Below, one piece after another: positions 11,374 through 18,336 of a stretch of 64,000 nucleotides of DNA. A program made the position numbers and the translations under genes. Where the stretch lies: assembly GCF_009914755.1 (NCBI RefSeq), contig NC_060929.1. One strand, given 5' to 3'. The notes below the pieces were generated by a model. That model did not search any database, was not told the origin of the DNA, and was given only the letters and a program-made list of their open reading frames with translations. How positions within the stretch are numbered: position 1 is the first letter of the stretch; every line of letters starts with the position of its first letter. Source of the DNA: the human T2T-CHM13v2.0 reference genome, Homo sapiens.

Positions 11374-14300
11374 TTTTCTTTTTTTTAATTATACTTTAAG
11401 TTCTAGGATACATATGCACAACGTGCAGGTTTGTTACATAGATATACATGTGCCATGTTGTTATGCCGCACCCATTAACTCATCATTTACATTAGATATT
11501 TCTCCTAATGCTCTCCTTCCCCCTGCCCCCCACCACATGACAGGCCCCGTGTGTGATGTTCCCCTTCCTCTGTCCAAGTGTTCTCATTGTTCAGTTCCCA
11601 CCTATGAGTGAGAACATGCAGTGTTTGGTTTTCTGTCCTTGTGATAGTTTGCTGAGAATGATGGTTTCTGGCTTCATTCATGTTCCTGCAAAGGACATGA
11701 ACTAATCCTTTTTTATGGCTGCATAGTATTCCATGGTGTATATGTGCCACATTTTCAAAATCCAGTCTATCATTGCTGGACATTCGGGTTGGTTCCAAGT
11801 ATTTGCTTTTGAGAATAGTGCCGCAGTAAACATACATGTGCATGTGTCTTTATAGTAGCATGATTTATAATCCTTTGGGTATATACCCAGTAATGGGATG
11901 GCTGGGTCACATGGTATTTCTAGTTCTAGATCCTTGAGGAATCGCCACACTGTCTTCCACGATGGTTGAACTAGTTTACACTCCCACCAACAGTGTAAAA
12001 GCATTCCTATTTCTCCACATCCTCTTCAGCATCTGTTGTTTCCTGACTTTTTAATGATCGCCATTCTAACTGGCATGAGATGGTATCTCATTGTGGTTTT
12101 GATTTGCATTCTCTGATGGCCAGTGATGATGAGCATTTTTTCATGTGTCTGTTGGCTGTGTAGATGTCTTCTTTTGAGAAGTGTCTGTTCATATCCTTTG
12201 CCCACTTTTTGAATGGGGTTATTTGTTTTTTTCTTGTAAATTTGTTGGAGTTCTTTGTAGATTCTGGATGCTAGCCCGTTTTCAGATGGGTAGATTGCAC
12301 AAATTTTCTCCCATTCTGTAGGTTGCCTGTTCACTCTGATGGTAGTTTCTTTTGTCATGCAGAAGCTCTTTAGTTTAATTAGATTCCATTTGACTATTTT
12401 GGCTTTTGTTGCCATTGCTTTTGGTGTTTTAGACATGAAGTCCTTGCCCATGCCTATGTCCTGAATGGTATTGCCTAGGTTTTCTTCTAGGGTTTTTATG
12501 TTTTAGGTCTAACATGTAAGTCTGTAAGCCATCTTGAATTAATTTTTGTATAAGGTGTAAGGAAGGGATCCAGTTTTAGTTTTCTACATATGGCTAGCCT
12601 GTTTTCCCAGCACCATTTATTAAATAGGGAATCCTTTCCCCATTTCTTGTTTTTGTCAGGTTTGTCAAAGATCAGATGGTTGTAGATGTGTGGTGTTATT
12701 TCTGAGGCCTCTGTTCTGTTCCATTGGTCTGTATCTCTGTTTTGGTACCAGTACCATGCTGTTTTGGTTACTGTAGCCTTGTAGTATAGTTTGAAGTCCG
12801 GTAACGTGATGCCTCCAGCTTTGTTCTTTTTGCTCAGGATTGACTTGGCAATGAGGGCTCTTTTTTGGTTCCATATGAATTTTAAAGTAGTTTTTCCAAT
12901 TCTGTGAAGAAAGTCATTGGTAGTTTGATGGGGATGGCATTGAATCTATAAATTACCTTGGGCAGTATGGCCATTTTCATGATATTGATTTTTCCTATCC
13001 ATGAGCATGGAATGCTCTTCCATTTGTTTGTGTCCTCTTTTATTTCATTGAGCAGTGGTTTGTAGTTCTCCTTGAAGAGGTCCTTCACATCCCTTGTAAG
13101 CTGGATTCCTAGGTATTTTATTCTCTTTGAAGCAATTGTGAATGGGAGTTCACTCATGATTTGGCTCTCTGTCTGTTATTGGCATATAGGAATGCTTGTG
13201 GTTTTTGCATATTGATTTTGTATCCTGAGACTTTGCTGAAATTGCTTATCAGCTTAAGGAGATTTTGGGCTGAGACGATGGGGTTTTCTAAATATACAGT
13301 CATGTCATCTGCAAACGGGGACAGTTTGACTTCCTCTTTTCCTAACTGAATACCCTTTATTTCTTTCTCTTGCCTGCTTGCCCTGGCCAGAACTTCCAAC
13401 ACTATGTTGAATAGGAGTGGTGAGAGAGGGCATCCCTGTCTTGTGCTAGTTTTCAAAGGGAATGCTTCTAGTTTTTGCCCATTTGATATGATATTGGCTG
13501 TGGGTTTGTCATAAATAGCTCTTATTATTTTGAGATAATCAATACTTAGTTTATTGGAATACCATCAATACCTAGTTTATTTCAACAAAAGCCAATGGAA
13601 ACTAATACAAATGGAATCTAATACCTCTAATACCATCGATACCTAATTTATTGAGTGATTTTAGCATGAAGGGCTGTTGAATTTTGTCGAAGGCCTTTCC
13701 TGCATCTACTGAGATAATCATGTGGTTTTTGTTGTTGTTTCTATTTATGTGATGGATTACGTTTATTGATTGGCGTATGTTGAACCAGCCTTGTATCCCA
13801 GGGATGAAGCCGACTTGATTGTGGTGGATAAACTTTTTGACGTGCTGCTGGATTCGGTTTGCCAGTATTTTATTGAGGATTTTTGCATCAATGTTCATCA
13901 GGGATATTGGTCTAAAGTTCTCTTTTTTTGTCGTGTCTCTGTCAGGCTTTGGTATCAAGATGATGCTGGCCTCATAAAATGAGTTAGGGAGGATTCCCTC
14001 TTTTTCTGTTGTTTGGAATAGTTTCAGAAGGAATGGTACCAGCTCCTCCTTGTACCTCTGGTAGATTTCAGCTATGAATCTGTCTGGTCCTTGGCTTTTT
14101 TTGGTTGGCAGGCTATTAATTATTTCCTTAATTTCAGAGCCTGTTATTGGTCTATTCAGAGATTCAACTTCTTTCTGGTGTAGTCTTGGGAGGGTGTATG
14201 TGTCCAGGAATTTATCCATTTCTTCTAGATTTTCTAGTTTATTTGCATAGAGGTGTTTATAGTATTCTCTGATGGTAGTTTGCATTTCTGTGGGATTGGT

Positions 14301-16213: not shown

Positions 16214-18336
16214 ATACTGAATGGGCAAAAACTGGAAGCATTCTCTTTGAAAACTGGCACAAGACAGGGATGCCCTCTCTCACCACTCCTGTTCAGCATA
16301 GTGTTGGAAGTTCTGGCCAGGCCAAGCAGGAAAGAGAAAGAAATAAAGGGTATTCAGTTAGGAAAAGAAGAAGTCAAATTTTCCCTGTTTGCAGATGAGA
16401 TGATTGTATATTTAGAAAACCCCATTGTCTCAGCCCAAAATCTCCTTAAGCTGATAAGCAACTTCAGCAAAGTCTTAGGATACAAAATCAGTGTGCAAAA
16501 ATCACAGGCATTCCTATACGCTGATAACAAACAGAGATCCAAATGACGAGTGAACTCTCATTCACAATTGCTTCAAAGAGAATAAAATACCTAGGAATCC
16601 AGCTTACAAGGGATGTGAAGGACCTCTTCAAGGAGAACTACAAACCACTGCTCAACGAAATGAAAGAGGACACAAACAAATGGAAGAACATTCCATGCTC
16701 ATGAATAGGAAGAATCGATATCATGAAAATGGCCATACTGCCCAAGGTAATTTATAGATTCAATGCCATCCCCATCAAACTACCAACGACTTTCTTCACA
16801 GAATTGGAAAAAACTACTTTAAAGTTCATATGGAACCAAAAAAGAGCCCTCATTGCCAAGTCAATCCTAAGCAAAAAGAACAAAGCTGGAAGCATCACGT
16901 TACCGGACTTCAAACTATACTACAAGGCTACAGTAACCAAAACAGCATGGTACTGGTACCAAAACAGAGATATAGACCAATGGAACAGAGTACAGCCCTT
17001 GGAAATAATACCACACATCTACAACCATCTGATCTTTGACAAACCTGACAAAAACAAGAAATGGGGAAAGGATTCCCTATTTAATAAATGTTGCTGGGAA
17101 AACAGGCTAGCCATATGTAGAAAGCTGAAACTGGATCCCTTCCTTACACCTTATACAAAAATTAATTCAAGATAGTTTAAAGACTTAAAAATTAGACCTA
17201 AAACCATAAAAACCCTAAGAGGAAACCTAGGCAATACCATTCAGGCCATAGGCATGGGCAAGGACTTCATGTCTAAAACACCGAAAGCAATGGCAACAAA
17301 AGCCAAAATTGACTGATGGGATCTAATTAAACTAAAGAGCTTCTGCACAGCAAAAGAAACTACCATCAGAGTGAACAGGCAACCTACAGAATAGGAGAAA
17401 ATTTTTACAATCTACCCAACTGACAAAGGGCTAATATCCAGAATCTACAAAGAACTTGAACAAATTTACAAGAGAAAATCAAACAACCCCATCAAAAAGT
17501 GGGCAAAGGATATGAACAGACACCTCTCCAAAGAAGACATTTATGCAGCCAACAGACACATGAAAAAATGTTCATCATCACTGGCCATCAGAGAAATGCA
17601 AATCAAAACCACAATGAGATACCACCTCACACCAGTTAGAATGGCGATCATTAAAAAGTCAGGAAACAACAGGTGCTGAAGAGGATGTGGAGAAATAGCA
17701 ATGCTTTTACACCTTTGGTGGGAGTGTAAACTAGTTCAACCATCGTGGAAGACAGTGTAGCGATTCCTCAAAGATCTAGAACTAGAAATACCATGTGACC
17801 CAGCCATCCCATTACTAGGTATATACCCAAAGGATTATAAATCATGCTGCTATAAAGACACATGCACACGCATGTTTATAGTGGCACTATTCTCAATAGC
17901 AAAGACTTGGAAGCAACCCAAATTTCCGTCAATGATAGACTGGATTAAGAAAATGTGGCACATATACACCATGGAATACTATGCAGCCATAAAAAAGGAT
18001 GAGTTCATGTCCTTTGTAGAGACATGGATGAAGCTAGAAACCATCATTCTGAGCAAATTATCGCAAGGACAGAAAACCAAACACTGCATGTTCTCACTCA
18101 TAGGTGGGAGTTGAACAATGAGAACACTTGGACACAGGGTGGAGAACATCACACACTGGGGCCTGTCGTGTGGTGGGGGGAAGGAGGAGGGATAGCAGTA
18201 GGAGATATACCTAGTGTAAATGACATGTTAACGGGTGCAGCACACCAGCATGGCACATGTATACATATGTCACAAACCTGCACGTTGTGCACATGTACCC
18301 TAGAACTTAAAGTATAATAATAATAATAATAAAAAA
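16212..18336 (+). mobile_element. L1PA (about L1PA5/6) 3' 2.1 kb, joined head-to-head with the previous element
   Basis: Begins tcatactgaatgggcaaaaactgg (mid-ORF2). ORFs 16247-16546, 16723-17175, 17872-18114. 3' UTR and (TAA)n/A tail ending at 18336. Confidence 0.95.

What the first reader, a model, noticed from the sequence alone, without database searches (positions are those of the whole stretch)
11374..18336. Two-tailed head-to-head L1 composite with ~2.1-kb inverted arms that share non-standard variants
Seen: the layout is A(-) 11374-~13537, scar, B(-) 13633-16213, A'(+) 16212-18336, with poly(A) tails pointing outward at both ends. B and A' join through a 2-nt TC microhomology, and I find no TSD around the whole. 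A and A' cover the same L1 3' region and share variants not seen in the other two L1PAs in this window (39-42 kb, 57-62 kb): ATGTGACC (~11908/17795), CATCGTGG (~11960/17744), CACGTTACCGGAC (~12800/16900), GAGCCCTCATT (~12855/16850), ATCCAGCTT (~13101/16601), CAAGCAGG (~13377/16325) and a 4-nt deletion in AACAGACAAACAGAGAG (~13170/16530). They also differ at many other sites, so the event is old. Established: B+A' alone has twin-priming geometry (inverted 5' part, ~50 nt missing at the inversion point), but twin priming yields only one 3' end. Inference: this is one complex integration in which two cDNAs from the same source L1 were primed from opposite sides and joined, or an inverted duplication/gene conversion between the arms.
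Basis: partly seen in the sequence, partly recalled or inferred. Interest (0 to 1): 0.8.

Follow-up and report, generated by a model that had tools for sequence, protein, structure and literature searches.

The report
Two inverted L1s homogenised by conversion
Two old L1 retrotransposon copies from different sub-lineages lie head-to-head in a COMMD10 intron, and their shared odd variants come from later patchy sequence exchange between the inverted copies, not from one common source.

Summary
The layout is real: A(-) 11374-13556, 76-nt filler, B(-) 13633-16213, A'(+) 16212-18336. Tails point outward, there is no TSD, and the B|A' join is L1-to-L1 with at most 2 nt (TC) of overlap. The shared variants are also real. 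A and A' share 5 states seen in none of 57 other copies and pair in a tree (support 0.994). One 24-mer carrying two of these states occurs only in A and A' genome-wide.

"Same source L1" does not hold:
- The shared states include an ORF2 nonsense codon and a 4-nt frameshift.
- Arm-to-arm divergence is mosaic, 10 to 48 differences per 400 columns; 1 of 5000 shuffles reaches that range.
- Outside the shared patches A' carries one abundant lineage haplotype at linked diagnostic sites and A carries the other.
- B has A's mixed lineage profile, so A+B is most likely one 4.8-kb L1 with an old templated-insertion scar. A' is a separate 2.1-kb L1.

Best reading: two L1 cDNAs from different sources, later homogenised in patches by non-allelic gene conversion. 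Whether the TSD-less join arose in one dual-primed event or by a second insertion with target deletion cannot be settled without outgroup genomes. Known processes; modest interest.

The parts
11374..11386 (-). poly(A) tail of the A+B element (T4 C T8 on the + strand), abutting a TG/TA-rich left flank
   Evidence: read directly; inverted homology with A' ends at 11368
11387..13556 (-). A: 3' 2.17 kb of an L1PA element (ORF2 C-terminal part and 3' UTR), mixed or intermediate lineage profile (5 G1 : 6 G2 states)
13557..13632 (.). 76-nt filler (scar). It holds a second copy of the antisense L1 24-mer that also ends A and starts B. It also holds an L1 piece in the opposite (sense) orientation that matches A 12378-12411, including A's nearly private G>A state, with an internal tandem repeat of about 16 nt
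13633..16213 (-). B: upstream 2.58 kb of the same L1 (end of ORF1 and 5' half of ORF2 by position, recalled map), contiguous with A in L1 coordinates with a 21-nt overlap; lineage profile 5 G1 : 5 G2, like A
16212..16213 (.). head-to-head L1|L1 junction, TC (0-2 nt microhomology), no target DNA between the two elements
16212..18336 (+). A': separate 5'-truncated 2.1-kb L1PA copy of the 'G1' lineage (11 of 12 diagnostic states), (ATA)n A6 tail ending at 18336
16326..17104 (+). shared patch 1 on A' (partner about 13377-12600 on A): 9 shared rare substitutions plus the shared 4-nt deletion at 16530. Only 8-11 differences per 300 nt in 16600-17089
17679..17893 (+). shared patch 2 on A' (partner about 12026-11812 on A): shared ORF2 nonsense codon (TGG>TGA, 17677-17679) and 17702T, 17703G, 17724G, 17744C, 17795G, 17893T
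17457..17479 (+). lineage-diagnostic sites where the arms differ (A' T,T = G1; A C,A = G2 type)
18051..18140 (+). lineage-diagnostic sites where the arms differ (18051 G vs C; 18139-18140 GT vs AA). Both 27-mer types are abundant genome-wide (1067 and 2358 places)

Best explanation
The composite consists of two L1PA copies made from two different source RNAs. Element 1 (minus strand, 11374-16213, about 4.8 kb) is A+B. It is one 5'-truncated cDNA that later acquired a 76-nt scar with templated insertions. Element 2 (plus strand, 16212-18336, 2.1 kb) is A', from a different sub-lineage. Their 5' ends are joined directly with at most 2 nt of microhomology and no TSD.

The two 2.1-kb arms form an inverted repeat 2.7 kb apart. 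They have since exchanged sequence in patches by non-allelic gene conversion. That exchange spread post-insertion mutations from one arm to the other, including an ORF2 stop codon and a frameshift. It makes the arms look like sisters in a tree.

Shown: the geometry, the lack of a TSD, the pair-specific shared states, the mosaic divergence, and the lineage differences outside the patches.

Inferred: that conversion is the cause, that A+B is one element, and how the join arose. For the join I favour a second TPRT event whose 5' end was ligated into or next to the older L1 with loss of the intervening target (about 0.5). The alternative is one dual-primed event using two RNAs (about 0.3).
For: 1. 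Shared states are real and pair-specific.
- 5 states occur in none of 57 other copies; 18 have at most 6 carriers; the pair ranks 2nd-3rd of 1711 pairs.
- The A+A' clade has support 0.994.
- The 24-mer with 16900T+16905G occurs at 2 places in the genome, A and A'.
- The 26-mer and 29-mer with 17795G and 17104A occur at 32 and 75 places. No other element appears in both lists.
- The two further exact carriers of the 17724G/17744C 37-mer share only 3 and 4 of 19 pair states.

2. The shared states are not those of a working source. Of 17 in ORF2, 7 are synonymous, 9 non-synonymous and 1 is a nonsense codon (W>* at 17679). There is also a shared 4-nt deletion.

3. The divergence is mosaic.
- There are 8-11 differences per 300 nt in 16600-17089 and 13-17 in 17479-17872, against 22-32 elsewhere.
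- The range of 10-48 per 400 columns is reached by 1 of 5000 shuffles. The smallest p among 25 control pairs is 0.022.

4. The arms belong to different lineages outside the patches.
- A' has the G1 state at 11 of 12 G1/G2 diagnostic columns.
- A has G2 states at 17457, 17479, 18051, 18139 and 18140.
- The two haplotypes at 18139-40 occur at 1067 and 2358 places genome-wide.
- On 1012 columns outside the patches, A' sits inside G1 and A is basal.

5. A+B is one element.
- It is contiguous in L1 coordinates.
- B's lineage profile is 5 G1: 5 G2, like A's 5:6 and unlike A's partner A' at 11:1.
- B is basal in its tree, as A is.

6. Both arms end at poly(A) with unrelated flanks, so each is a retrotransposition product.

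7. A second pair in the sample behaves the same way. L007/L055 on chromosome 6 are inverted L1 arms of 3.0 kb with tails outward and inner ends about 5.2 kb apart. They belong to G1 and G2, yet share 15 rare states and are mosaic.

8. Elevated conversion between repeat copies less than 10 kb apart, and mosaics of diagnostic sites, are described for Alu (PMC6598467, passages read).
Against: - On the 1012 columns outside the patches, the AU test does not reject A+A' as a clade (lnL cost 12.97, p-AU 0.221). I chose those columns after seeing where the shared states lie.
- The G1 group was defined from six sites at which A and A' differ. One of them, 17457, is a CpG site that could have decayed independently.
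- A's mixed G1/G2 profile could itself be read as mosaic rather than as an intermediate lineage.
- B's lineage call rests on 10 columns and 8 G1 copies. One of the two most telling columns, 13646, lies inside the 21-nt overlap. There, A's own copy of the repeat has the other state.
- Rare-state loads do not separate the ages. They are A 33/982 and A' 22/985 outside the patches, and B 41/1445, A 54/2095 and A' 49/2099 overall.
- The three shared rare states at 18036, 18171 and 18182 interleave with the differing diagnostic sites. They need very short tracts or parallel mutation.
- Only 57 comparison copies were sampled, picked by a loose first look from more than 25,000 candidates.
Confidence: 0.68

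Rival explanations
1. One event, two RNAs ('dual priming', a two-tailed L1 bridge). Two target-primed reverse transcriptions started on opposite strands at or near one break, each on the poly(A) tail of a different L1 RNA. The two cDNAs (4.8 kb and 2.1 kb) were joined at their 3' ends with loss of target DNA. Gene conversion then acted as in the best explanation.
For: - Two outward poly(A) tails, an L1|L1 junction with 0-2 nt of microhomology and no target DNA, and no TSD for either element or for the whole.
- Rare-state loads of A, B and A' are statistically indistinguishable.
- The mechanism was postulated by Meyer et al. 2010 (PMC2837659, abstract and sections 3, 11 and 12 read in passages).
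Against: - The two cDNAs come from different sub-lineages. This fits two separate times at least as well as co-activity.
- Nothing in one genome shows simultaneity.
- A hint, not significant, that A is more diverged than A' outside the patches (33/982 vs 22/985).
Confidence: 0.3
2. One reading: one integration in which two cDNAs of the same source L1 (or the same RNA) were primed from both sides. The shared variants would be the source's own.
For: Sister placement on the whole arm (support 0.994). Pair-unique 24-mer. Similar rare-state loads. The AU test outside the patches does not reject sisterhood (p 0.221).
Against: - The common ancestor of the shared states had a nonsense codon and a frameshift in ORF2. 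The source would then have needed mobilisation in trans.
- Divergence between the arms is not uniform (1 of 5000 shuffles).
- The arms differ at 17479, 18051 and the 18139-40 dinucleotide. In each case the difference runs in the direction of two abundant lineages.
Confidence: 0.07
3. B+A' is an ordinary twin-primed L1 with an inverted 5' part and a gap of about 50 nt. A is a separate L1 whose nascent cDNA annealed to the end of B (a chimeric L1 join with target deletion). That would explain the 21-nt overlap and the messy filler.
For: - The twin-priming geometry of B and A'.
- Triplication of the 21-24-mer exactly at the A/B seam.
- At 13646, B's copy of the repeat differs in lineage state from A's copy and from the filler's copy.
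- It explains why the seam lies next to the L1 position where A' starts.
Against: B has 5 G1: 5 G2 states where A' has 11:1. My hand estimate from the counts gives a likelihood ratio of about 20 against G1 membership, falling to about 2 without column 13646. B is basal like A in the trees.
Confidence: 0.12
4. DNA-level inverted duplication or foldback of arm A to the far side of B.
For: Inverted arms with shared private mutations, including ORF-breaking ones.
Against: - The copy would have to start at the 5' end of B and stop exactly at the poly(A) end. The flanks beyond the tails are unrelated.
- The arms differ in lineage haplotype.
- The mosaic has regions of about 9% divergence, as high as between unrelated copies.
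Confidence: 0.03

Closest known systems
Non-allelic (ectopic) gene conversion between neighbouring retrotransposon copies: Alu and L1 mosaics of diagnostic sites, with a higher rate within 10 kb (Fawcett and Innan 2019, PMC6598467, citing Aleshin and Zhi 2010)
   Same: Two nearby copies of different sub-lineage share patches with private mutations. Diagnostic sites and divergence are mosaic. The tree is misleading.
   Different: Here the partners are 2.1-kb inverted L1 arms joined head-to-head, and the transferred states include an ORF2 stop codon. No outgroup was available to time the transfers.
Twin priming (Ostertag and Kazazian 2001; recalled, and as described in PMC2837659 and PMC12016303)
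   Same: Two cDNAs of opposite orientation joined at an internal junction with little or no microhomology. B and A' have the expected small gap in L1 coordinates.
   Different: Two poly(A) tails instead of one, 2.1 kb of L1 present twice, no TSD, and the two sides belong to different lineages.
Dual priming (Meyer et al. 2010, Mob DNA 1:7, PMC2837659) and two-tailed L1 bridges from synchronous insertions in tumours (bioRxiv 10.1101/2024.08.27.596794)
   Same: Both strands primed on poly(A) tails by two different L1 RNAs, outward tails, cDNA-to-cDNA junction.
   Different: Meyer et al. proposed it only as a possibility, for loci where one side is just a poly(T) run. The tumour cases bridge translocations or inversions. 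Here both cDNAs are kilobases long, in the germline and old, and simultaneity is unproven.
L1 insertion-mediated deletion and chimeric L1 formation (Gilbert 2002, Symer 2002, Han 2005; recalled, seen here only as search listings)
   Same: An insertion without a TSD whose 5' end is joined to resected target DNA, here inside another L1.
   Different: The deletion cannot be shown without the ancestral empty site.

Membership tests
Twin-primed (5'-inverted) L1 insertion | Inverted 5' segment and direct 3' segment are adjacent in L1 coordinates (small gap or overlap) | tested here: met
   B's 3' end and the start of A' are about 50 nt apart on the 39-42 kb reference copy (41204 vs 41153)
Twin-primed (5'-inverted) L1 insertion | Both segments copied from one RNA (same lineage) | tested here: not met
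   B has 5 G1: 5 G2 states and A' has 11:1. Modest power: 10 columns and 8 G1 copies
Twin-primed (5'-inverted) L1 insertion | One poly(A) tail and flanking TSD | tested here: not met
   Two outward tails; no TSD above shuffles
Dual priming / two-tailed L1 bridge | Two outward poly(A) tails and a direct cDNA|cDNA junction | tested here: met
   Tails at 11374-11386 and 18331-18336; junction at 16212-16213 with no non-L1 bases
Dual priming / two-tailed L1 bridge | Both cDNAs made in one event | not testable with these tools
   Needs orthologous loci in other primates; none are held. Rare-state loads are compatible with one event but cannot separate close dates
Dual priming / two-tailed L1 bridge | TSD, or a defined target-site deletion relative to the empty site | tested here: inconclusive
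   No TSD. A deletion cannot be seen without the empty allele
Non-allelic gene conversion between paralogous repeats | Significant mosaic of similarity between the two copies | tested here: met
   10-48 differences per 400 columns; 1 of 5000 shuffles reaches that range; 25 control pairs have minimum p 0.022
Non-allelic gene conversion between paralogous repeats | Shared derived states confined to the similar patches and absent from other family members | tested here: met
   No shared rare state lies in 17105-17678. 18036, 18171 and 18182 are exceptions that interleave with differing sites
Non-allelic gene conversion between paralogous repeats | The copies have different origins outside the patches | tested here: inconclusive
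   Five linked diagnostic sites differ in a lineage-consistent way, and A' sits in G1 while A is basal. The AU test does not reject sisterhood (p 0.221)
Non-allelic gene conversion between paralogous repeats | Before-and-after states in outgroup species | not testable with these tools
   No primate genomes are held
DNA-level inverted duplication / foldback | Duplicated block is not bounded by element ends; flanks are co-duplicated | tested here: not met
   Inverted homology ends at 11368 and 18338, at the two tails

The most novel reading that the evidence does not exclude
The locus is a fixed germline fossil, perhaps about 20 Myr old, of dual priming. Two different L1 RNAs were reverse-transcribed from opposite strands of one break. 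The two kilobase-long cDNAs were ligated head-to-head with loss of the target. The resulting inverted repeat has since driven conversion and a break-repair scar at its inner boundary. It would be a germline counterpart of the two-tailed L1 bridges seen in tumours, and the validation that Meyer et al. 2010 asked for.
Probability: 0.3. Interest if true: 0.55.

Novelty: new member of a known kind. Interest (0 to 1): 0.3.

Why it matters
- It is a worked example of how gene conversion between nearby inverted L1 copies can create a false "same source" signal. The arms pair with 0.994 support and share a genome-unique 24-mer, yet they differ in lineage. This matters for L1 source tracing and for dating copies by divergence.
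- The TSD-less, two-tailed head-to-head join is a candidate germline instance of dual priming or of an L1 bridge with deletion. That class is so far documented mainly in tumours. Primate T2T assemblies could settle the question at this locus.
- The locus lies in a COMMD10 intron, and no effect on the gene is indicated.

Tried and rejected
- **TSD search.** I compared the left flank, the filler and the right flank in all three pairings. Nothing exceeded the shuffles.
- **Raw similarity as a test of sisterhood.** It is uninformative. 31 of 58 other loci score higher against A' than A does. A was not even among the 40 of 28,854 candidates scored.
- **Sub-lineage hypothesis for the shared states.** I tested it with four genome-wide patterns and by fetching the two extra carriers. 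It was rejected, except that 17724G is a common state.
- **Wider sampling.** I wanted the 30 other carriers of 17795G and the DNA between L055 and L007.
- **Synonymous vs non-synonymous ratio of the shared states.** It was 7:9:1 for shared states and 29:57:8 for private ones. That is too few sites to tell selection from neutrality.
- **Age ordering of A+B and A'.** The rare-state loads do not differ significantly.
- **AU test on columns outside the patches.** It did not reject sisterhood.
- **Best genome hits of B.** They are 88-91% identical, against 92-93% for A'. I do not read this as an age difference, because only 40 of 19,270 candidates were scored and the region differs.
- **Origin of the scar.** The filler has no match outside L1 in the window or in the loci. 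I could not decide whether reverse transcriptase or later DNA repair made it.
- **First alignment run.** It timed out and was repeated with faster settings.
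Full report
**What is there**

The region 11374-18336 consists of L1 sequence in three blocks.
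- On the plus strand a T-run (T4 C T8, 11374-11386) leads into antisense L1 from the 3' end inwards. This is A, to 13556.
- A 76-nt filler follows (13557-13632).
- Antisense L1 then continues as B (13633-16213).
- Sense L1, A' (16212-18336), follows and ends in (ATA)n A6.

A and A' form a 2.1-kb inverted repeat, 92.37% identical over 2124 columns. The repeat stops at the two tails (arms 11368 and 18338), and the flanks beyond are unrelated.

A and B are contiguous in L1 coordinates. A's 5' end and B's 3' end both match 41204-41224 of the L1 at 39-42 kb, a 21-nt overlap. A' begins about 50 nt downstream of B's 3' end on that same reference. None of the three flank pairings gives a direct repeat above shuffles.

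**Are the shared variants more than chance?**

Yes. I aligned A and A' with 55 copies fetched from the same genome and the two other window L1s, 59 rows in all.
- A and A' agree on a state that differs from the majority at 33 columns.
- 5 of those states occur in no other row, 11 have at most 4 carriers and 18 have at most 6.
- Among 1711 pairs the mean for pair-only states is 0.24, and A/A' ranks 2nd-3rd.
- The other carriers of each state are scattered, not one recurring set.
- A FastTree tree joins A and A' with support 0.994, internal branch 0.011 and terminal branches 0.050 and 0.042.

Genome-wide pattern counts agree.
- The 24-mer with 16900T+16905G occurs only in A and A'.
- The k-mers with 17795G and 17104A occur at 32 and 75 places. 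No other element appears in both lists.
- The 37-mer with 17724G+17744C is exact at 4 places. The two extra carriers share only 3 and 4 of the 19 pair states.
- 17724G alone is common: the same 37-mer search, allowing one mismatch, found 406 places.

Raw identity does not show the relationship. 31 of 58 other loci score higher against A' than A does.

**Why this is not "two cDNAs of one source"**

- *Broken ORF2.* Of the 17 shared rare states inside ORF2, one is a nonsense codon (TGG>TGA at 17677-17679). Both arms also share a 4-nt deletion at 16530. The remaining states are 7 synonymous and 9 non-synonymous, close to the private changes (29:57:8). The common ancestor of these states was already a broken ORF2.
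- *Mosaic divergence.* There are 8-11 differences per 300 nt in 16600-17089 and 13-17 in 17479-17872, against 22-32 elsewhere. Where divergence is high, the arms are among each other's most distant relatives. The range of 10-48 differences per 400 columns is reached by 1 of 5000 shuffles. For A' against 25 other copies the smallest p is 0.022. No shared rare state lies in 17105-17678.
- *Different lineages outside the patches.* 12 of the sampled copies carry a linked haplotype ('G1': 17457T, 17479T, 17929T, 18051G, 18139G, 18140T) and 37 carry the alternative ('G2').
  - A' has the G1 state at 11 of 12 G1/G2 columns.
  - A has G2 states at 17457, 17479, 18051, 18139 and 18140, and 5 G1: 6 G2 overall, like the copies L022, L014 and L008.
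  - The two 27-mers around 18139-40 occur at 1067 and 2358 places in the genome, so this is a true lineage difference.
  - In a tree of the 1012 columns outside the patches, A' sits inside G1 and A is basal.

There are caveats. The AU test on those columns does not reject an A+A' clade (cost 12.97 lnL, p 0.221). I chose the columns after seeing the data. 17457 is a CpG site.

**Which pieces belong together?**

B+A' has twin-priming geometry, so I tested whether B goes with A' or with A.
- On 10 G1/G2 columns in 13633-15080, B has 5 G1 and 5 G2 states. That matches A's mixed profile, not the near-pure G1 profile of A'.
- B is basal in its tree, as A is.
- Rare-state loads are alike: B 41/1445, A 54/2095 and A' 49/2099. 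Outside the patches they are A 33/982 and A' 22/985, which is not significant.

I conclude that A+B is one 4.8-kb element and A' a separate one. The power is modest. One telling column, 13646, lies in the 21-nt overlap, where A's copy has the other state.

**The filler**

The filler holds a third copy of the antisense 21-24-mer that ends A and starts B. It also holds about 45 nt of L1 in the opposite orientation, which matches A at 12378-12411. The match includes A's G>A state, found in 1 of 55 other copies. That piece itself contains a tandem repeat of about 16 nt.

This is the pattern of repeated short-homology template switching with snap-back copying. Either reverse transcriptase at insertion or later end-joining repair could have made it. 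The repeat copies differ by about 2 in 24, so the scar is old.

The scar lies 46-141 nt beyond the inner end of the inverted homology. By my arithmetic from the coordinates, that has about a 3% chance for a random place in 4.8 kb. I suspect a break at the boundary of the inverted repeat, repaired by homology on one side and by end joining on the other. This is inference only.

**How the join arose**

Each arm ends in its own poly(A), so there were two target-primed reverse transcriptions on opposite strands. The junction contains no target DNA and there is no TSD. Two routes fit.
- A second insertion whose 5' end was ligated into or next to the older L1, with loss of the intervening target.
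- One dual-primed event with two RNAs. Meyer et al. 2010 postulated this (PMC2837659). L1 bridges with two poly(A) tails from synchronous insertions in tumours resemble it (bioRxiv 10.1101/2024.08.27.596794).

Different lineages fit the first route slightly better, and the equal loads fit either. Only outgroup genomes can decide, and none are held here.

**Comparison with what is known**

Mosaics of diagnostic sites, and conversion between repeat copies less than 10 kb apart, are established (PMC6598467, passages). Foldback and inverted-duplication outcomes of L1 integration (bioRxiv 10.1101/2024.12.14.628481, passages) would duplicate the flanks, which is not seen here.

A second pair in my sample, L007/L055 on chromosome 6, has the same orientation and different lineages. 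It shares 15 rare states and shows the same mosaic. The phenomenon looks general.

**Verdict**

The "same source" reading is not supported, and the "gene conversion between the arms" reading is supported. The processes are known ones. The open and mildly novel point is whether the two-tailed, TSD-less join records a single dual-primed event.

Noticed in passing
L055 832-3843 and L007 602-3615 (G000 C6:64501918-64506434 and C6:64510389-64515491): A second pair of inverted L1 arms: 3016 nt at 93.8% identity, minus then plus, tails outward, unrelated flanks, inner ends about 5.2 kb apart. They share 15 rare states and are mosaic (3-27 differences per 300 nt), although L007 is G1 and L055 is G2. 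Probably another case of conversion between neighbouring inverted L1s. The DNA between them could not be fetched.
   Followed up: partly
window 11290-11373: The left flank of the composite is a TG/TA-rich simple repeat (gtatatgt units) running right up to the T-run of A. That makes a short TSD hard to recognise on this side.
   Followed up: no
window 16530 (A') and about 13170 (A): The 4-nt deletion in the ACAAACA run that the arms share is also present in 7 of 57 unrelated copies. It is therefore a recurrent slippage site and a weak marker on its own.
   Followed up: yes
window 17702-17744: A cluster of four shared states (17702T, 17703G, 17724G, 17744C) also turns up singly in other copies, including the older-looking window L1 at 57-62 kb. 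The 37-mer search allowing one mismatch found 406 places, most of them with 17724G and without 17744C. Part of the 'non-standard' set may therefore be old-lineage states rather than new mutations.
   Followed up: partly
window 1-3600, 10447-10700, 30505-31831: Further, much more diverged L1-like stretches (67-72% identity to the composite) lie elsewhere in the window, so this COMMD10 intron is L1-rich.
   Followed up: no
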